64,000 bases of DNA from Escherichia phage VEcB, in the sequence record NC_052663.1; one strand, 5' to 3'. The first letter of the stretch is position 1, and each line of letters begins with the position of its first letter. The notes beneath the pieces were generated by a model. It saw only the letters and a program-made list of their open reading frames with translations. It was not told the origin of the DNA and searched no databases. The position numbers and the translations under genes are program-made. This document shows positions 8,590-14,981 of this stretch, in pieces.

Positions 8590-9021
8590 TTAATCAGTGA
8601 AAATTACGCTCACATCTTCTTTAGAGAAGAGTTTATGATCTTCACCTTTTGTCTCAAGAGTTTCATACAGGTTAAGAAGTTCTGAAACATCTTTCTCTAC
8701 TAGTTTCTTCAATGTTGCAATTTTCTGTTTGCGATTTTTAATACGTTCAGCTACAACCTTACGTTGGTATCCGGCAGTACGATAACCTGAGAAAGTTACA
8801 CCAGTGAGACTTGCAGTTACAGGATCGTAATGACGTTCAATCTGAAATTTATTAAAAGGTACAGCGTCATCACGAATAATCTTACCGCCATTACTTACTT
8901 GACGAAGACCAGTAACTTGTTCTAGTCGTGCCATAGAAATCTTTGGAGACAGACCAGAGTCCAGGTTCATACCGTTGTTAATCAGTGCTTTCAGGGTGAT
9001 TTTGCTGTTCAGTGTACTCAT
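8590..9021 (-). CDS. Hypothetical protein
   Basis: ORF track; GGAGGAA RBS 7 nt upstream of ATG; start overlaps the end of the methyltransferase gene. Confidence 0.35.
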   Translation of the reverse strand: MSTLNSKITLKALINNGMNLDSGLSPKISMARLEQVTGLRQVSNGGKIIRDDAVPFNKFQIERHYDPVTASLTGVTFSGYRTAGYQRKVVAERIKNRKQKIATLKKLVEKDVSELLNLYETLETKGEDHKLFSKEDVSVIFTD

Positions 9022-9709
9022 TTAGTCGTTCCTCCGCTTGCTTAAAAATATTTACATCGGCTTCACAGCCTAAGTATTCTCTACCTGTTAAAAGTGCCGC
9101 AACTTGTGTTGTTGCACTCCCAGAGAAGAAGTCTAAGACTACATCTCCTTCGTTGGTGTGTATATTAATAAGGTCACAAAACAAAGTCAAGTGTTTTTGT
9201 GTTGGATGAAAACGATCTGCTCCTTGATAGATAGGATACTCAAACACACCCTTATGGTAGGAAGCATTGAAGGTTGGCTTCGAACCTTTAACACAAACAA
9301 TAGCCATCTCTTTAGCGTTACTAAGATAGTTAACACCACTGTTGATGGGTACAGGGTTTGTTTTAATCCATTCGATAGTACGGAACATACGAAAACCAAG
9401 CGGTTCAAGGATTTCACGTAGCTCCTGGATCTTCCAGATATCATACCAAACTATGCAAGTACCACCTTTTCTAAGCACCCTGTAGGCTTCTTTGAATACT
9501 TCTTTAAAGTAAGGAATATCTACAACATCCCAATCACCAAAGTTGTAAGATACACGGAATCTATCCGTATCTTTTCCAGTAGGCTCTCCAGATTGAAAAT
9601 TTGTGTCACGAGAAATAGCATATGGTGGGTCAGTAAGAATCAAATCTACACTATTGCTTTCGAGGGTTTGCAGGTAGTTTAATGCGGTGTTGTTTACAAA
9701 TTCGCTCAT
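8978..9709 (-). CDS. DNA methyltransferase, beta-class (N6-adenine or N4-cytosine)
   Basis: N-terminal DPPY motif (LILTDPPYAISRD) and C-terminal AdoMet motif (VLDFFSGSATT): the circularly permuted order typical of beta-class amino-MTases. Confidence 0.7.
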   Translation of the reverse strand: MSEFVNNTALNYLQTLESNSVDLILTDPPYAISRDTNFQSGEPTGKDTDRFRVSYNFGDWDVVDIPYFKEVFKEAYRVLRKGGTCIVWYDIWKIQELREILEPLGFRMFRTIEWIKTNPVPINSGVNYLSNAKEMAIVCVKGSKPTFNASYHKGVFEYPIYQGADRFHPTQKHLTLFCDLINIHTNEGDVVLDFFSGSATTQVAALLTGREYLGCEADVNIFKQAEERLNEYTEQQNHPESTD

Positions 9710-9717
9710 TATATCTC

Positions 9718-9746
9718 CTTCAAAGAAAAGGAGCCGTTAGGCTCCT
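9718..9746 (-). terminator. Terminator downstream of the SSB-like gene
   Basis: GGAGCC-GTTA-GGCTCC hairpin followed on the minus strand by TTTTCTTT. Confidence 0.5.
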
Positions 9747-9769
9747 TATATTCACACAATATTTAACTA

Positions 9770-10717
9770 TTAGAAACAGTGCAGGAAGTTTCGACCATAC
9801 TGCAAACCAATAGGAGCAAATGGGATATCATCATCGAAATCTTGAACAACAGGTTCTGGTTCTTTCGGTGCTGGCTCTTTCTTCTCTACTTTTTTAGTTT
9901 CTTTCTTAACTTCTTGTACTGGGGTAGACATTCCACGGATAGCAGCAGCTACTTTATCAGACAAAGCAAGAACTTCACGAGCAGCTTCAATAATCTCTTC
10001 TGCCGTTACAGTTTTACCTGTATGATCACGACAAGCGTTAAGAATTGCGTGTCCAACTGAAGCACCAAGATCATAGTCAGTCACATCAACGCCACGATCT
10101 TTAGCAATTTCTGCTTTCAGAGTAACAGTTGCAGATTGTACCACACCAGCCAAGTCGAAAGCATCACCTTTCACACCAGCACGTAGAAGCTCCAGAGCGC
10201 CATTTACAGCGTGTCCTGTTTCAATCCCTACAGTATCACGTTTTTTGTAGTTAGGTTTGCTACCTTCGTTATTAGATGGCTTATTTCCACCTTTTGAAGA
10301 AGATTGTGCTTGCTGAACACCTTCTGTTGAAAGAACAGTGATTTTACCTTTAGAGGAGTTGTAGTATGTTTTGCCATTCCATTCGGAAGGTTTAACATCC
10401 ATAGTTACTTCTACACCTTTTTCGATAGTAATCCACTTATCACCATCTTTAACTTGCAGGTTTTCATGTTCTGGGTGCAGTTTAACTTCACCTAGGCTAA
10501 CCCAAACACCTTTATCATCAGCACCAGCACCTTTCTCTTTAATAAGCAGAGATGCTTTGTGAGTTGATTCAATTTTCTTATCTGGCTGACCTGCAACCTT
10601 AATATAAGAGACTTTCATTTCATCAAACTTATCCAGTTTGACATATTCAACGATACCTTCAGCCCAGAATGCTTCTTTTTTAGTACGACGGTCGATTTCA
10701 GAATTAATTACTGGCAT
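9770..10717 (-). CDS. Putative ssDNA-binding / recombination-associated protein carrying an SSB C-terminal-tip-like motif (DFDDDIPF)
   Basis: GAGGAG RBS; C-terminal region PVVQDFDDDIPF matches the E. coli SSB acidic tip but is followed by 14 more residues. Confidence 0.45.
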   Translation of the reverse strand: MPVINSEIDRRTKKEAFWAEGIVEYVKLDKFDEMKVSYIKVAGQPDKKIESTHKASLLIKEKGAGADDKGVWVSLGEVKLHPEHENLQVKDGDKWITIEKGVEVTMDVKPSEWNGKTYYNSSKGKITVLSTEGVQQAQSSSKGGNKPSNNEGSKPNYKKRDTVGIETGHAVNGALELLRAGVKGDAFDLAGVVQSATVTLKAEIAKDRGVDVTDYDLGASVGHAILNACRDHTGKTVTAEEIIEAAREVLALSDKVAAAIRGMSTPVQEVKKETKKVEKKEPAPKEPEPVVQDFDDDIPFAPIGLQYGRNFLHCF

Positions 10718-10733
10718 AAATTCTCCTCTATAA

Positions 10734-11132
10734 TTACATTACTTTAACACAAAACTCTCGTAAAAGAGTAGCGTCAGTTTCTTCCAACAGGTATTTACCA
10801 AGACCAATACCAAATCCTATTTCACCACTTTCGAAATGGAGGATTTGTATCTTTTCTCCACCAAGGTTAATTACTTTTGCTTTTCCAGGATTATCCAAAA
10901 CATCTCGTATTGTATCCTGTAGTAACATAAGTTCACGTTTTGTGATAGTGGTTTCAGATATCTCTTTGTTTTCTACTCTCACTGTTAAACGATTGTATCC
11001 ACCAAAGAGACATAGTATTTGAATAAAAAAGGTATTATCTTGAGGTTCAACATCTTTTTTAGTTAGCTCAAGACGATTAGTTTCTCTACTATAGAACGTC
11101 TCGACTAAGATTTTAGAACGATTATCTGTCAT
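10734..11132 (-). CDS. Hypothetical protein
   Basis: ORF track; GAGGA RBS. Confidence 0.35.
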   Translation of the reverse strand: MTDNRSKILVETFYSRETNRLELTKKDVEPQDNTFFIQILCLFGGYNRLTVRVENKEISETTITKRELMLLQDTIRDVLDNPGKAKVINLGGEKIQILHFESGEIGFGIGLGKYLLEETDATLLREFCVKVM

Positions 11133-11175
11133 TCAAGTCCTCATAATAACACATAATTATAATGTTTGTCAACAC

Positions 11176-11777: not shown

Positions 11778-12374
11778 CTATCGTGTCCACTCTTTGTGTT
11801 GTTCTACATGCTCAAGCATTTCATTATATAGTGCTTTAAGATGTGGAACAACTCTTTCATCTTCAGTTTCAAAGAATTTTGTAAGCTGTTCTGCCTTAGC
11901 CTTCAACCAACAAAGATGCGCTTCAATTTCAGTATTAAAACGTCCCAGTGTTATAACACGTCCATCACGTTGAATATGGGCTTTATACTTTTTACGATCT
12001 TTTTCGTAACTACATCCTACCATAGTCCCATGAGATCTTTTACTTACTCTATAAGCTAAGAACTTGTTAAGATCTCCTGTTACTAAAAGACAGGTATCGG
12101 GAGAGTAAACTCTCCCTCCTATAATATCTTTATCAAGTTCTAAGTTTTCCCAGTTATCCCAAGTTTGCAACCAAGAGTAGAAATTGGAGAACAGTTTCCA
12201 TTCTTCACAAACCGTCACCCCATTATAACAAGGATCACGTTCTTGTTGACAAGGGGAGTAACACCTCCCCAACATAGCCATCCATTTCATATAATGCGGC
12301 GTTAGTTTCTTACTACCAGGTAGCGTACTCTCGCCTTCCAAATCATTAATACCTTCACCATATACGGTAAGCAT
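11778..12374 (-). CDS. AP2-domain DNA-binding protein, possibly homing-endonuclease-like
   Basis: AP2-like segment KKYKAHIQRDGRVITLGRFNTEIEAHLCWLKAKA; Cys-rich N-terminal region; sits immediately downstream of the DNA polymerase gene. Confidence 0.35.
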   Translation of the reverse strand: MLTVYGEGINDLEGESTLPGSKKLTPHYMKWMAMLGRCYSPCQQERDPCYNGVTVCEEWKLFSNFYSWLQTWDNWENLELDKDIIGGRVYSPDTCLLVTGDLNKFLAYRVSKRSHGTMVGCSYEKDRKKYKAHIQRDGRVITLGRFNTEIEAHLCWLKAKAEQLTKFFETEDERVVPHLKALYNEMLEHVEQHKEWTR

Positions 12375-12401: not shown

Positions 12402-14981
12402 TCAGTGACAAGTTGACCATGAACTACCAACATCGTAACCAGCAGTGAGAGGTACATTAAGATTGTAATACTCACCAGCTTTATTAACAGCGATAGATGC
12501 TAATTCTCCAGCACGACTGTAGGCTGTAAACCAACCACCTTTCGGAGATTCATGTACGTTAGCCCAAATCTTGCCAGTACGTTTCTCTTCCTCTTCTTTC
12601 CAGGCATTAACCTTATCCAAACATTCTTTATCAATTTTCTTTTGTTCTTCTGGATCATCAACTTGAGTCCAACCTAAAGATTCTTTAGAGAACCATTTAA
12701 AATGCACCAGATCACGAGTTACTTCAAGCTGTGCTTCATCGTGATATGCAATCATTTGTTGAACGAATGACTTATTTTTCCAGTCATCAACAAAAAAGTC
12801 AACAGCTAATCCTTCTTCTTCGATAAGATCGTCGTAGATAACCATTGCTCTTTTTGCACAAATAACACCACCACTCTGGAACAGAGAGTTAAGTATTGCG
12901 TGTGCAGATCGTGTAGGTACTTTCCTACCATCAATACCAAGAATGTATTTCTTACCTGTTTTAACCCAAAAATCATGCAGACGTTCTTTAAGAAGCGCAA
13001 GAGGTTTTGCAGCTTCCCAGAAAGCATCGTATACAAGCTGTCCTGTATACATATCACTACCTATAGTTTTTGCTACTTTTGCAGCTTGAGCACCATAAGT
13101 AATACCATACTTAACAGATTTAGCAGGGCTTCGTTCAAACTTACGACCAATAGTGTCAGAAATACGTCGAGCCATCATTGTATGAACATCATTAGGTTTT
13201 TCCAATAATAGAGCATTACAATATTCATGTGGTTCCTGCTCGTACCGCCAACAGTAGTGTGATTCTATTTTTGCCTCAAGAGAATCAAAGTCATAACCAA
13301 TTTGGAAGTATTTTGGAACTTCTACACCAAATAAGTTACGCATTTCATATCCGTACAGAGATGTTACACGTGGGATATTTGCTACTAACCTATGTTTCAT
13401 ACGAGACGTAGCTGCATCACACGTTGCAGCAGGAGTCGGTATACGACCATCAGCCCTTACTGCCGCCAGATAACCTTTATCGTAATCCTCTTCATCCTCT
13501 TCCCAATCAGCACCACCGCCTAGAATAGAGTTTCTACGATGTTTATACGTAAGATACTGCACAATCTGCGTAGCATAAGGAAACTTTTCACCTAGTGCTT
13601 CCAAGTTAGGACAAATATCCTTCTCTTGCCCTTTTGTAAAGGAAGGGTTAGTAAGCACCTTAACACCACGACCTTTAGCTTTAGCAATACGATCTCTTAG
13701 TTTCCATTCCAAAGTTTCTGGTGTGCACTCCAGATGATCACATCTATCCTGGCAGAAGTTAGATGCTAATGTTTGATCAACATAGTCACGAATAGCTTTC
13801 TCCATTTGTGCTTCATCTTTCTTAATCTTAGTGCCAGATTTAAGAGTGATATCTTTATCTTTATATTCAGATGGACTCCAACCTAAACCAACTAACCAAT
13901 TTTTAATATGTGTAGTGTCGTCTAAAGTAGCAGGTACTGTAGGATCACAAATAGGTTCTTCTGCTGGAATAGGCAGTTTAAACTCTTTACCTAATGCAAA
14001 TAACCACCAACCATCTTCTTTTTGTACAAGTTCACCAGAATGTTTCTCTGCAAACTTTATCATGTTACTTGAAGGTTCACCATTCTTTTTAAACTGTAGT
14101 TTAGGTGGAATGAATGATTTCAAATAACCTTTAGTAGCAGGTTTAGGAGGTAGCACAGGTTCTGCCTCTAAACGACATGCTTCCATTCGAGCATCCAGAT
14201 CACGAATATTATCTTCTGCTTGCTTCATATTGAAAGCAAAGCCACGGTGCTCTTGACGTGTAATAATATCAGCTACACGTTGTTCTAAGTTAAATGGTTC
14301 AGACCACTTATTATAATCACCCCACTCTTCCATCAAATAACGGAACACTGCGGTGTTAGCTTTGTTATCGTAAATACAGTAATACAGCATATCTGCTGCA
14401 AATGTTTTAAATCTTTCAGTTTCAGGGATGTTTTTTCTAAAATCAATTTTAACATCCCCTCCAGCTTTCTTAGATAACTCTGCCAGACTATGACCACCGA
14501 AGCGATCAGGGTTTAGTGTCTTACTTAAGATCATAGTATCACAAATTTCAATGTTACTATTACCCCAAGTATTGTACTTAATACTGTAGTTGAGTTTAAA
14601 AAATAATTTAATTGCCAGTAAGTCAAAGTTAATGATGTTATGTCCAACTACTTTGGTAATTTTATAGTTTGAATTACCTTTAAATTTACCTGTTCCATTT
14701 ACAAAATCAGGAAAATCTTTAAGAGGGAAATGGGTATATTCTAAATGCTCATATTCCTCCAGTCGGTATTCATACTTTCCGTCAGTCTCAATATACGGAC
14801 GACCATCGAAAAGATATTTATCACCATCATGGAAAGCAATAATCTCTCCAGTATCATGACTTTCGCACACAATACAGTGCATTGCAAAACTATCTTTTAA
14901 ACGATATGGACTTGCCAAGTAATCTACACTTTCGTCATTAAGCAAGTTGTTACTTTCAATGTCGAAAGTAAAAGCTCCCAT
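12402..14981 (-). CDS. DNA polymerase, family A, with N-terminal 3'-5' exonuclease domain
   Basis: 859 aa; exo motif FDIESNNL; motif B-like RSPAKSVKYGITYGAQ; motif C HDEAQLEV; AAGGAGGGAG RBS. Confidence 0.8.
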   Translation of the reverse strand: MGAFTFDIESNNLLNDESVDYLASPYRLKDSFAMHCIVCESHDTGEIIAFHDGDKYLFDGRPYIETDGKYEYRLEEYEHLEYTHFPLKDFPDFVNGTGKFKGNSNYKITKVVGHNIINFDLLAIKLFFKLNYSIKYNTWGNSNIEICDTMILSKTLNPDRFGGHSLAELSKKAGGDVKIDFRKNIPETERFKTFAADMLYYCIYDNKANTAVFRYLMEEWGDYNKWSEPFNLEQRVADIITRQEHRGFAFNMKQAEDNIRDLDARMEACRLEAEPVLPPKPATKGYLKSFIPPKLQFKKNGEPSSNMIKFAEKHSGELVQKEDGWWLFALGKEFKLPIPAEEPICDPTVPATLDDTTHIKNWLVGLGWSPSEYKDKDITLKSGTKIKKDEAQMEKAIRDYVDQTLASNFCQDRCDHLECTPETLEWKLRDRIAKAKGRGVKVLTNPSFTKGQEKDICPNLEALGEKFPYATQIVQYLTYKHRRNSILGGGADWEEDEEDYDKGYLAAVRADGRIPTPAATCDAATSRMKHRLVANIPRVTSLYGYEMRNLFGVEVPKYFQIGYDFDSLEAKIESHYCWRYEQEPHEYCNALLLEKPNDVHTMMARRISDTIGRKFERSPAKSVKYGITYGAQAAKVAKTIGSDMYTGQLVYDAFWEAAKPLALLKERLHDFWVKTGKKYILGIDGRKVPTRSAHAILNSLFQSGGVICAKRAMVIYDDLIEEEGLAVDFFVDDWKNKSFVQQMIAYHDEAQLEVTRDLVHFKWFSKESLGWTQVDDPEEQKKIDKECLDKVNAWKEEEEKRTGKIWANVHESPKGGWFTAYSRAGELASIAVNKAGEYYNLNVPLTAGYDVGSSWSTCH

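What the first reader, a model, noticed from the sequence alone, without database searches (positions are those of the whole stretch)
9770..10717. Internal SSB-tip mimic (DFDDDIPF) in a putative ssDNA-binding protein
The sequence DFDDDIPF, identical to the E. coli SSB C-terminal tip that recruits many host replication and repair proteins, occurs near the C-terminus but is followed by 14 more residues (APIGLQYGRNFLHCF). An embedded tip could hijack or compete for host SSB-interacting proteins, or the extension could regulate tip accessibility.
Basis: partly seen in the sequence, partly recalled or inferred. Interest (0 to 1): 0.45.

Follow-up and report, generated by a model that had tools for sequence, protein, structure and literature searches.

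The report
Capped SSB docking tip, phage protein
This phage's single-strand-DNA-binding-like protein carries the host SSB docking tip (DFDDDIPF) followed by 15 more residues, and that cap is a conserved, horizontally mobile add-on shared by many phage and plasmid SSBs; no paper in the searched library describes it and its binding partner is unknown.

Summary
ORF 9770..10717 (-) encodes 315 aa, with DFDDDIPF at residues 293-300 followed by APIGLQYGRNFLHCF (15 residues, not 14). It is not a frameshift: at least 40 independent phage genomes carry the full ORF.

The window is a phi92-like E. coli myophage (Justusliebigvirus). The protein is predicted to have an OB fold, a four-helix bundle, a disordered linker and the tip. 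It is a homologue of Bas52_0087, the published DRT10 trigger.

The new point is that the extension is itself a conserved module:
- Its form is IPF + [A][P]ΦG[L]x[Y] ... Φ[H/Y/N]xΦ-COOH, and it is always 14-17 residues long.
- It sits on at least 8 unrelated scaffolds: canonical SSBs, three other PHROG SSB families, a DnaB-type primase/helicase and plasmid SSBs.
- All genuine bacterial-genome hits were in gammaproteobacteria.
- It is under protein-level purifying selection.
- It was gained or lost at least 15 times within this one family, with the recombination junction at the Phe codon.
- In some phages an HNH homing endonuclease gene overlaps it.

Canonical partner pockets need the free carboxylate of the terminal Phe. 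The capped tip therefore most likely re-specifies partner binding rather than simply mimicking host SSB. The partner is not identified.

The parts
9770..10717 (-). Gene for the 315-aa SSB-like protein (phrog_4477 family; identical to muut_211 of phage muut)
   Evidence: It is 100% identical in phages muut, Nernie, EmilieFrey and others.
10322..10717 (-). Residues 1-132: predicted OB-fold beta-barrel, the presumed ssDNA-binding domain
10232..10321 (-). Residues 133-162: low-confidence interdomain linker
   Evidence: pLDDT is below 50 for residues 138-154.
9938..10231 (-). Residues 163-260: four-helix bundle, preceded by the nearly invariant D161-x-x-G-x-E-T-G-H segment
   Evidence: D161 aligns with D252 of Bas52_0087, a DRT10 escape position placed by those authors at an oligomerisation interface.
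9842..9937 (-). Residues 261-292: Lys/Glu/Pro-rich disordered linker
   Evidence: pLDDT is about 50-60 and no secondary structure is predicted.
9818..9841 (-). Residues 293-300, DFDDDIPF: the SSB-Ct-like acidic tip, here internal
   Evidence: It is identical to the last 8 residues of E. coli SSB as found in PDB chains.
9773..9817 (-). Residues 301-315, APIGLQYGRNFLHCF: the conserved C-terminal cap of the tip
   Evidence: All 100 distinct variants are 14-17 aa long. The cap is under protein-level purifying selection and occurs on at least 8 unrelated scaffolds.
9728..9747 (-). Terminator-like hairpin AAGGAGCC-TAAC-GGCTCCTT plus a T run, 22 nt after the stop codon. Phage G1 shares it together with the extension.
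10734..11132 (-). Upstream 132-aa ORF (phrog_16560, unknown function). It lies between the promoter-like site and the SSB-like gene and is probably co-transcribed; the gene order is syntenic in G1 and ESCO13.
11143..11172 (-). Promoter-like site (TTGACA, 18 nt spacer, TG-TATTAT; 11 of 12 matches) upstream of the two-gene unit
   Evidence: This is a consensus match only.

Best explanation
The gene encodes the phage's SSB-like protein: an OB fold, a four-helix oligomerisation bundle, a disordered linker and a host-type acidic tip. Its last 23 residues form a composite short linear motif that I call a capped tip. The motif consists of the DFDDDIPF tip joined to a conserved 14-17-residue cap. The cap has a first hydrophobic anchor (A-P-Φ-G-L-x-Y), a short Gly/Pro plus basic turn, and a second anchor at the very C-terminus (Φ-[H/Y/N]-x-Φ-COOH).

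Shown:
- The module is real and conserved at the protein level.
- It is always C-terminal and of fixed length.
- It sits on many unrelated ssDNA-binding or replisome proteins of phages, prophages and plasmids of gammaproteobacteria.
- It moves between genes by recombination whose junction is the tip-coding DNA.
- In some phages an HNH homing endonuclease gene overlaps it.

Inferred:
- The cap removes the free alpha-carboxylate that canonical SSB-partner pockets require and adds two new hydrophobic contacts. It therefore changes which partner the tail binds.
- The tail would no longer broadly recruit host tip binders. It would instead dock, through both anchors, onto one partner that is conserved across Enterobacterales, Vibrionales, Aeromonadales and Alteromonadales.
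- That partner is therefore most probably a host protein.
- Exonuclease I (SbcB) is the leading but weak candidate. It could be sequestered, or simply not recruited to phage ssDNA.

Capped and uncapped alleles coexist in near-identical phages. The cap is therefore an accessory, host-interaction trait rather than part of the core replication function.
For: Reality and selection:
- The full ORF is present in all 40 best phage records.
- The cap is conserved at about 35% overall identity.
- Window and G1 differ by 7 synonymous and 0 non-synonymous changes in the cap.
- In 43 distinct 15-codon caps, positions the search pattern did not fix are conserved through several codons: I at position 12 in 41 of 43, Y/N/H at 13, hydrophobic at 15.
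- All 100 distinct caps are 14-17 aa long.
- All 120 IMG/VR pattern hits are in frame; 119 of them end 14-16 aa after PF and one stops at 8 aa, which I did not check further.

Portability:
- Canonical PF00436-type SSBs: Vibrio phage BT-1011, mEp235, K288.
- phrog_44 gp2.5-like SSBs: phiEB49, morffagbaw.
- Also phrog_7364, phrog_2544 and phrog_3284 proteins, a DnaB-type primase/helicase of Klebsiella phage P8734, and the IncT plasmid Rts1 SSB with other plasmid SSBs.

Mobility:
- At least 15 gains or losses for 20 capped members among 74 family members.
- G1 and ESCO13 are identical up to the Phe codon and unrelated after it.
- Bas50 (capped, with homing endonuclease) versus Bas52 (uncapped) shows junctions at the Phe codon and at the old stop codon.

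No single mobile-element partner:
- Upstream neighbours include ERF, Sak4-like AAA_24, RecT, Rad52, YqaJ and RdgC.
- Downstream neighbours are heterogeneous.

Host range: 18 of 20 hits in one genome per species are genuine; 17 lie in gammaproteobacterial genomes and one in a MAG labelled Parasphingorhabdus.

Carboxylate requirement of canonical pockets: PMC10164576 and PMC3152348.

SbcB link: an uncapped homologue is the DRT10 trigger, and SbcB dosage modulates that system.
Against: - No partner was identified and nothing here tests binding.
- AlphaFold2 leaves the tail disordered (pLDDT about 50). That is expected for a linear motif but gives no positive support.
- Capped and uncapped alleles are interchangeable in nearly identical phages, so the effect on fitness may be small.
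- DRT10 restricts both Vequintavirinae and Stephanstirmvirinae, so capping does not obviously abolish that sensing.
- The gammaproteobacterial restriction rests on one strict DNA pattern (DIPFAPxGLxY) and may partly reflect the pattern.
- The same cap variant (GRN[FL]LH[CV][FI]) occurs in both E. coli and Vibrio phages. The partner surface would then have to be highly conserved, or not host-encoded.
- The homing-endonuclease association offers a selfish-element reason for part of the spread.
Confidence: 0.5

Rival explanations
1. Insulating lid only. The cap exists simply to block the terminal carboxylate, so that host tip-dependent enzymes (ExoI, RecJ, RecQ, UDG) or tip-sensing defence systems are not recruited to phage-coated ssDNA. 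The cap has no partner of its own.
For: Canonical pockets need the free carboxylate. The module is specific to mobile elements. Its patchy, arms-race-like distribution, with both alleles viable, fits an evasion trait. Many capped SSBs sit in recombination modules, whose 3' ssDNA ends ExoI would destroy.
Against: A lid needs only one or a few arbitrary residues. It does not need a 14-17-residue peptide with near-invariant G, L, Y and a fixed hydrophobic C-terminus kept through many synonymous changes. If the tip were merely silenced, DFDDDIPF itself should decay in capped lineages, yet it stays conserved.
Confidence: 0.17
2. Degradation or remodelling tag. The exposed basic-plus-hydrophobic C-terminal peptide is a degron or chaperone-binding site (ClpXP, ClpAP, Lon or DnaK) that limits the lifetime of mobile-element SSBs or lets host unfoldases strip them from DNA.
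For: The cap always ends in a non-polar pentapeptide on a disordered tail: AIYVI, FLHCF, LLNCM, AIHAI, and variants such as LYALA and YAIS that recall ssrA YALAA. A basic residue precedes the hydrophobic core, as in the DnaK-type and MuA-type signals I recall from the literature. That resemblance is a lead from memory and was not tested.
Against: Degrons tolerate wide sequence variation. The conserved A-P-Φ-G-L-x-Y half and the strict spacing to IPF are not explained. There is no evident reason why virulent myophages, temperate phages and conjugative plasmids should all need a short-lived SSB.
Confidence: 0.13
3. Selfish-element footprint. The extension is the 5' end of a homing-endonuclease cassette that targets the conserved tip-coding end of ssb genes, read in the SSB frame. 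It has no function for the protein, and caps without an endonuclease gene are relics.
For: In Vequintavirus every annotated capped allele listed has an endonuclease gene under or next to the match, while Bas52, which has no endonuclease gene there, is uncapped. The insertion sits exactly between the Phe codon and the old stop codon. The endonuclease ATG is formed by the Tyr-Gly codons of the cap, with a 29-nt overlap, in both Bas50 and morffagbaw, which have unrelated SSB scaffolds. phiEB49 has a truncated endonuclease gene.
Against: None of the 86 distinct downstream ORFs of capped ssb genes in IMG/VR matches an HNH family. The window itself has a terminator 22 nt after the stop and no endonuclease gene there. 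Lineages without an endonuclease gene still show purifying selection on the peptide and constant length. Many caps (LPYP, LMYP) contain no ATG at that place. A relic should accumulate premature stops, and none is seen.
Confidence: 0.1
4. Private channel to a phage-encoded partner. The capped tail is recognised by a protein of the mobile element, such as its polymerase, annealase or helicase, in the way T7 gp2.5 and gp4 tails bind T7 DNA polymerase.
For: In Klebsiella phage P8734 the primase/helicase carries the same tail, and related Mydovirus-type phages show two places with the motif, one of them their SSB-like protein. This echoes the T7 arrangement. The HK620 SSB tail is needed for its cognate Sak4 (PMC5928155).
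Against: The module occurs in elements that share no replication or recombination protein: lambdoid prophages without a polymerase, a 40-kb Vibrio podophage, a 146-kb myophage and the IncT plasmid Rts1. The neighbouring annealases belong to four different families. The primase/helicase of this phage lacks the tail.
Confidence: 0.08
5. Artefact: a sequencing error or frameshift removed the true stop codon after IPF.
For: None, beyond the unusual position of the motif.
Against: The ORF is identical or nearly identical in dozens of independently sequenced phages. The peptide is conserved in distant homologues and on unrelated proteins.
Confidence: 0.01

Closest known systems
E. coli SSB C-terminal tip (SSB-Ct, DFDDDIPF-COOH) as a hub for SSB-interacting proteins
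   Same: It has the identical 8-residue sequence, preceded by a disordered linker on an OB-fold ssDNA-binding protein.
   Different: In SSB the Phe is the last residue, and its alpha-carboxylate is a main contact in partner pockets. Here Phe300 is followed by 15 conserved residues, so that contact cannot form.
Bas52_0087 of phage RudolfGeigy (Vequintavirus), the published SSB-like trigger of the DRT10/UG17 defence system (bioRxiv 10.64898/2026.04.29.721553)
   Same: It is a homologue (BLASTP E = 2e-15 and 1e-14 for two segments). It shares the four-helix bundle, the tip, and the conserved Asp at the escape position D252, which aligns with D161 here.
   Different: Bas52_0087 has two OB folds, is 408 aa long and ends at ...FDDDIPF, so it is uncapped. 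The window protein has one OB fold and the cap. No experiment has been done on a capped member.
Acidic C-terminal tails of T7 gp2.5 and gp4, and the NDYPPF tail of HK620 SSB
   Same: These are phage SSB tails used as docking peptides. In T7 the SSB and the helicase-primase share one type of tail. Likewise, the capped tail occurs both on SSB-like proteins and on a primase/helicase in Mydovirus-type Klebsiella phages.
   Different: Those tails end with the aromatic residue and use its free carboxylate (established knowledge for T7). The capped tip does not.
Free-standing HNH homing endonuclease genes inserted next to conserved phage genes
   Same: In Bas50, morffagbaw and phiEB49 an HNH gene sits directly behind or overlapping the cap. 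The insertion junctions lie at the end of the ssb gene, and the distribution is patchy.
   Different: The window has no endonuclease gene at this place. The cap persists and is selected without one.

Membership tests
Bacterial-type SSB (Pfam PF00436) | Sequence match to the SSB OB-domain profile | tested here: not met
   No Pfam family matched at E <= 1. No PDB sequence matched at E <= 10.
Bacterial-type SSB (Pfam PF00436) | OB-fold core | tested here: met
Bacterial-type SSB (Pfam PF00436) | Binds ssDNA and forms homo-oligomers | not testable with these tools
   Inferred only from the fold, from the position of the gene among the DNA polymerase, nucleotidyltransferase and primase/helicase genes, and from the published model of the homologue.
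SSB-Ct docking motif | Acidic stretch followed by I-P-F after a disordered linker | tested here: met
   DFDDDIPF at residues 293-300, preceded by a low-pLDDT K/E/P-rich segment.
SSB-Ct docking motif | Phe is the C-terminal residue, with a free alpha-carboxylate bound by the basic lip of partner pockets | tested here: not met
   Fifteen residues follow Phe300. The requirement is taken from PMC10164576 and PMC3152348.
phrog_4477 / Bas52_0087 family of phage SSB-like proteins | Profile match, plus an architecture of OB fold, four-helix bundle and acidic tip | tested here: met
   phrog_4477 matched at E = 1.9e-101, and the profile ends at residue 300. There are 98 homologous clusters. Architecture; BLASTP to Bas52_0087.
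Capped-tip module (defined here) | [D/E]-rich stretch + [I/V/T]PF, then 14-17 residues to the C-terminus with Φ-G-[L]-x-[Y/F] near the start and Φ-[H/Y/N/W]-x-Φ at the end | tested here: met
   APIGLQYGRNFLHCF fits every position. The pattern was derived from 100 distinct variants. The identical peptide occurs in Phapecoctavirus G1 and a near-identical one in Vibrio phage BT-1011.
Homing-endonuclease-linked cap cassette (Bas50 / morffagbaw type) | HNH endonuclease gene starting inside the cap codons or directly behind them | tested here: not met
   The window has a terminator 22 nt after the stop codon, followed by a DNA methyltransferase gene. The only nearby HNH gene, at 11778..12374, is upstream and belongs to another family, phrog_953.

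The most novel reading that the evidence does not exclude
The capped tip is a device specific to mobile genetic elements that turns the universal SSB docking peptide into a selective, high-affinity ligand for one host tip-binding enzyme. Exonuclease I is the most plausible target. Binding would inhibit or sequester that enzyme and so protect phage or plasmid ssDNA and recombination intermediates. The module would spread as a cassette, partly driven by an HNH homing endonuclease that uses the conserved tip-coding DNA of any ssb gene as its landing site. That would explain how one 45-nt coding segment reached at least 8 unrelated protein families.
Probability: 0.15. Interest if true: 0.8.

Novelty: new variant of a known kind. 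Interest (0 to 1): 0.6.

Why it matters
The accepted rule for bacterial SSBs is that the acidic tip must be the extreme C-terminus, because partner pockets grip the terminal carboxylate. Here a large, coherent class of phage, prophage and plasmid replication proteins keeps the tip perfectly conserved but buries it under a conserved 14-17-residue cap.

If the cap redirects binding, it is a new way for mobile elements to tap into, or insulate themselves from, the host genome-maintenance hub. That bears directly on how defence systems sense phage SSBs; DRT10 is triggered by an uncapped homologue.

The question is cheap to test, because capped and uncapped alleles already exist in BASEL phages (DrSchubert, EmilieFrey, JohannJBalmer and PaulScherrer are capped; RudolfGeigy is uncapped). 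The link to a homing endonuclease also suggests a mechanism by which a peptide module moves between non-homologous genes using only a 20-nt conserved coding sequence.

Tried and rejected
- Frameshift or sequencing error: rejected.
- Literature search for the motif strings PIGLQY, IPFAPIG, DIPFAP and others in 8 million papers: no hits. Searches on phage, plasmid or prophage SSB with SSB-Ct found nothing relevant.
- PDB sequence search with the tail profile: only terminal tips, none with a cap.
- Tail-profile search of the 5.8-billion-protein set: returned mostly short SSB fragments. It was useful for cap variants but not for scaffolds.
- Cap-only search, using a triple-repeat profile to look for host proteins carrying a cap-like C-terminus without the tip: only 22 candidates, all SSB fragments at E of 3 or more. 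It was uninformative and had low sensitivity.
- Search for a constant neighbouring gene as a candidate partner: upstream and downstream ORFs of about 86-88 distinct contexts are heterogeneous.
- A second copy of the motif elsewhere in the window, or on this phage's primase/helicase: none.
- Beta-clamp-binding motif (QL[SD]LF or QLxLxL): considered from memory. Only a minority of caps (such as PQLLWCM) fit, and most have H, N or Y where a hydrophobic residue is required. Not pursued.
- Membrane-targeting amphipathic helix: rejected, because many caps contain 2-3 prolines.
- Intramolecular docking of the cap on the protein's own domains: AlphaFold2 shows none, and the scaffolds are unrelated.
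- Per-phage DRT10 sensitivity of capped versus uncapped BASEL phages: the data exist only as a figure and are not in the held text or supplements.
- Complex prediction with host proteins: not possible with the tools, which predict single chains only and restrict the input.

Full report
**Observation.** The minus-strand ORF 10717..9770 encodes a 315-aa protein. DFDDDIPF occupies residues 293-300 (window 9841..9818). It is followed by APIGLQYGRNFLHCF, residues 301-315 (9817..9773), and a TAA stop. The extension is 15 residues, not 14. A regular-expression scan of all six frames finds no second copy of the motif in the window.

**Identity of the window and exclusion of an artefact.** tblastn against 50,697 phage records finds 343 records with a match. 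The best are 100% identical over all 315 residues: phages muut, Nernie, EmilieFrey, ZYD and cardinal. All 40 listed records cover residues 1-315 at 98.4% identity or more. The window therefore comes from a Justusliebigvirus (Stephanstirmvirinae, phi92-like) E. coli myophage; the gene is muut_211. So many independent assemblies exclude a sequencing error.

**What the protein is.** It matches no Pfam family and no PDB sequence. It does match phrog_4477, of unknown function, at E = 1.9e-101, and that profile ends exactly at residue 300.
- An AlphaFold2 model built on 74 homologues gives a confident beta-barrel (residues 1-132), a disordered linker, a confident four-helix bundle (163-260) and a disordered tail (261-315).
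- The gene lies downstream of a family-A DNA polymerase gene, an HNH endonuclease gene, a nucleotidyltransferase gene and a small ORF. It has a promoter-like site upstream of that ORF and a terminator-like hairpin 22 nt after its stop.
- A 2026 preprint describes the Vequintavirus protein Bas52_0087 as an SSB-like protein with two OB folds, a four-helix bundle and a C-tip, and identifies it as the trigger of the DRT10 defence system, which host exonuclease SbcB modulates.
- Bas52_0087 is a homologue of the window protein (BLASTP 2e-15 and 1e-14). The escape position D252 aligns with the nearly invariant D161 here.

**The extension is conserved, not an accident of this gene.** Homologues with about 35% identity carry APVGLQYGKSRIHAL (rV5-like DrSchubert) and APIGLPYGRNFIHCI (Mydovirus BIS47) after the same tip. 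Among 98 family clusters about 20 are capped and the rest end at IPF.
- On a neighbour-joining tree of the core domains, Fitch parsimony needs at least 15 gains or losses for the 20 capped members among 74.
- Phapecoctaviruses G1 and ESCO13 are identical in DNA up to the Phe codon and unrelated after it. G1 shares the cap and the terminator hairpin with the window.
- Within the 15 cap codons, window and G1 differ by 7 synonymous and 0 non-synonymous changes.

**The same tip plus cap sits on unrelated proteins.**
- A 21-aa tblastn query finds 229 phage records.
- Canonical SSBs carry it: Vibrio phage BT-1011 (...NEPPMSFDDDIPFAPIGLQYGRNLLHVI), K288, mEp235 and mEp013.
- gp2.5-like phrog_44 SSBs carry it: phiEB49, Vibrio 511E55-1 and morffagbaw.
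- So do a phrog_7364 SSB (P0098), an Aeromonas protein, and the DnaB-type primase/helicase of Klebsiella phage P8734, which ends ...GPDDDTPFAPIGLQYAKHAIYVI.
- Plasmid SSBs carry it too, including IncT Rts1.
- An exhaustive HMMER search of 1.84 billion representatives with a tail profile gives 56 hits, each at or within a few residues of the C-terminus. It adds phrog_2544 and phrog_3284 proteins and a TraI_2-like fragment.
All are in frame, and 119 end 14-16 residues after PF; one stops at 8 residues and was not checked further. About 100 of them are canonical SSBs.
- In one genome per species (185,579 species) the pattern gives 20 hits. Eighteen are genuine SSB paralogues: 17 lie in Proteus, Providencia, Moellerella, Sodalis, Vibrio, Oceanisphaera, Pseudoalteromonas or Glaciecola, and one lies in a MAG labelled Parasphingorhabdus.
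- Pooling all sources gives 100 distinct caps, all 14-17 residues long.
- Positions my pattern did not fix are conserved through several codons: I at position 12 in 41 of 43, Y/N/H at 13, hydrophobic at 15.
- A second sequence class, [L/I/M]G[H/F/Y]GYG[V/I]CRKAIYAIS, shares the length and the C-terminal Φ-[H/Y]-A-Φ.
- No paper in the searchable library contains the motif strings, and no PDB chain contains a capped tip.

**Link to a homing endonuclease.** Bas52_0087 ends at ...FDDDIPF and is uncapped. DrSchubert (Bas50) is capped and has an HNH/endonuclease VII-like gene (phrog_1035) whose start overlaps the last 29 nt of the cap.
- Aligning the two genomes places the insertion between the Phe codon and the old stop codon.
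- The endonuclease ATG is formed by the Tyr-Gly codons (TATGG) of the cap.
- The same arrangement, again with a 29-nt overlap, occurs in morffagbaw, whose SSB scaffold is unrelated.
- phiEB49 has a truncated copy of the endonuclease gene.
- Every annotated capped Vequintavirus allele listed has an endonuclease annotation at the match. A homing endonuclease is therefore one vehicle for the cap.
- It is not the whole story. None of 86 distinct downstream ORFs of capped ssb genes in IMG/VR matches an HNH family, the window has no endonuclease gene at this position, and selection on the peptide is seen in lineages without one.

**Mechanism.** Typical SSB-Ct pockets have a hydrophobic pocket for the terminal Phe, a basic lip that anchors its alpha-carboxyl group, and a basic ridge for the Asp residues. 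Removing the contact to the carboxylate abolishes binding (PMC10164576, PMC3152348). An internal Phe300 cannot make that contact, so simple mimicry of host SSB is unlikely.
- The tip itself stays conserved in capped proteins.
- The cap has two conserved hydrophobic anchors at a fixed distance from IPF and from the C-terminus.
- The module works on scaffolds that share nothing but ssDNA or replisome function.
- The elements carrying it share no common replication or recombination protein. Neighbouring annealases include ERF, Sak4-like, RecT and Rad52 types.

The most economical reading is a composite docking peptide for a partner conserved among these gammaproteobacterial hosts. In this reading the cap switches the tail from broad recruitment of tip binders to a selective interaction, or at least insulates phage ssDNA from tip-dependent nucleases. 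Exonuclease I is a candidate for two reasons: the SbcB link to DRT10 and its uncapped trigger, and the frequent location of capped SSBs in recombination modules. This last step is inference only.

**Rivals.** They are a pure lid, a degron or unfoldase tag, a passive homing-endonuclease footprint, and a private channel to a phage protein. All are listed with tests. The coexistence of capped and uncapped alleles in near-identical phages shows the cap is accessory rather than essential.

**Verdict.** The protein family is known but poorly characterised. The cap appears to be an undescribed variant of the SSB tip motif that is widespread in mobile elements. Its function remains to be shown.

Noticed in passing
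window 11778..12374 (-): A 198-aa ORF between the DNA polymerase gene and the nucleotidyltransferase gene is an HNH homing endonuclease (phrog_953, E = 8.5e-74). It has no Pfam hit, and muut annotates it as hypothetical.
   Followed up: partly
window 8978..9709 (-) and 8590..9021 (-): An N6/N4 DNA methyltransferase gene (PF01555) lies directly downstream of the SSB-like gene, followed by an overlapping 143-aa ORF (phrog_20244). Phapecoctavirus G1 and ESCO13 lack both genes at this position, where a convergent tail-protein gene follows instead. DNA methyltransferases (MT-A70 x5, C5 x2, N6_N4 x1) also recur downstream of capped ssb genes in IMG/VR.
   Followed up: partly
L005:503-2566 (Klebsiella phage P8734): A DnaB-type primase/helicase ends with ...GPDDDTPFAPIGLQYAKHAIYVI. 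Helicase and SSB-like protein thus share one tail type in Mydovirus-type phages, as T7 gp4 and gp2.5 do. SalP219, VIK251 and Mydo each show two places with the motif.
   Followed up: partly
L003:2581-3223 compared with L158:7130-7330 (Bas50 DrSchubert vs Bas52 RudolfGeigy): An HNH endonuclease cassette is inserted exactly between the last Phe codon and the stop codon of the SSB-like gene. The endonuclease start codon is created by the Tyr-Gly codons of the cap. The same layout occurs in morffagbaw (L159:1838), which has an unrelated SSB.
   Followed up: yes
phage records MG065639, MG065645, MG065656, MG065689 and others: About 20 GenBank records named 'Campylobacter phage' with host C. jejuni encode proteins 100% identical to those of these E. 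coli phages and have similar genome sizes. They are probably mislabelled or contaminant assemblies.
   Followed up: no
P0153, P0161, P0181, P0202, P0203, P0208, P0166, P0152; L013 (Rts1): A second sequence class of cap follows the tip: IPF-[L/I/M]G[H/F/Y]GYG[V/I]CRKAIYAIS. Rts1 has a degenerate form, AGLGASFGKHTIHAIC. These have the same length and C-terminal pattern but lack the A-P-Φ-G-L-x-Y half.
   Followed up: partly
P0258 (170 aa): A protein with an N-terminal TraI_2 ('putative helicase', ICE relaxase-type) segment ends in ...GEWDDDIPFLGHGYGMAKHASSSL. The tail may therefore also occur on conjugation proteins.
   Followed up: no
window 12402..14981 (-); muut_208: The family-A DNA polymerase is annotated 'part I' in muut, and the Bas52 polymerase is joined from two pieces. 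Together with the adjacent HNH gene, this hints at a split or invaded polymerase gene in these phages.
   Followed up: no
window 11143..11172 (-): A near-consensus sigma-70-type promoter-like site (TTGACA, 18 nt spacer, extended -10 TG-TATTAT) lies upstream of the 132-aa ORF and the SSB-like gene.
   Followed up: no
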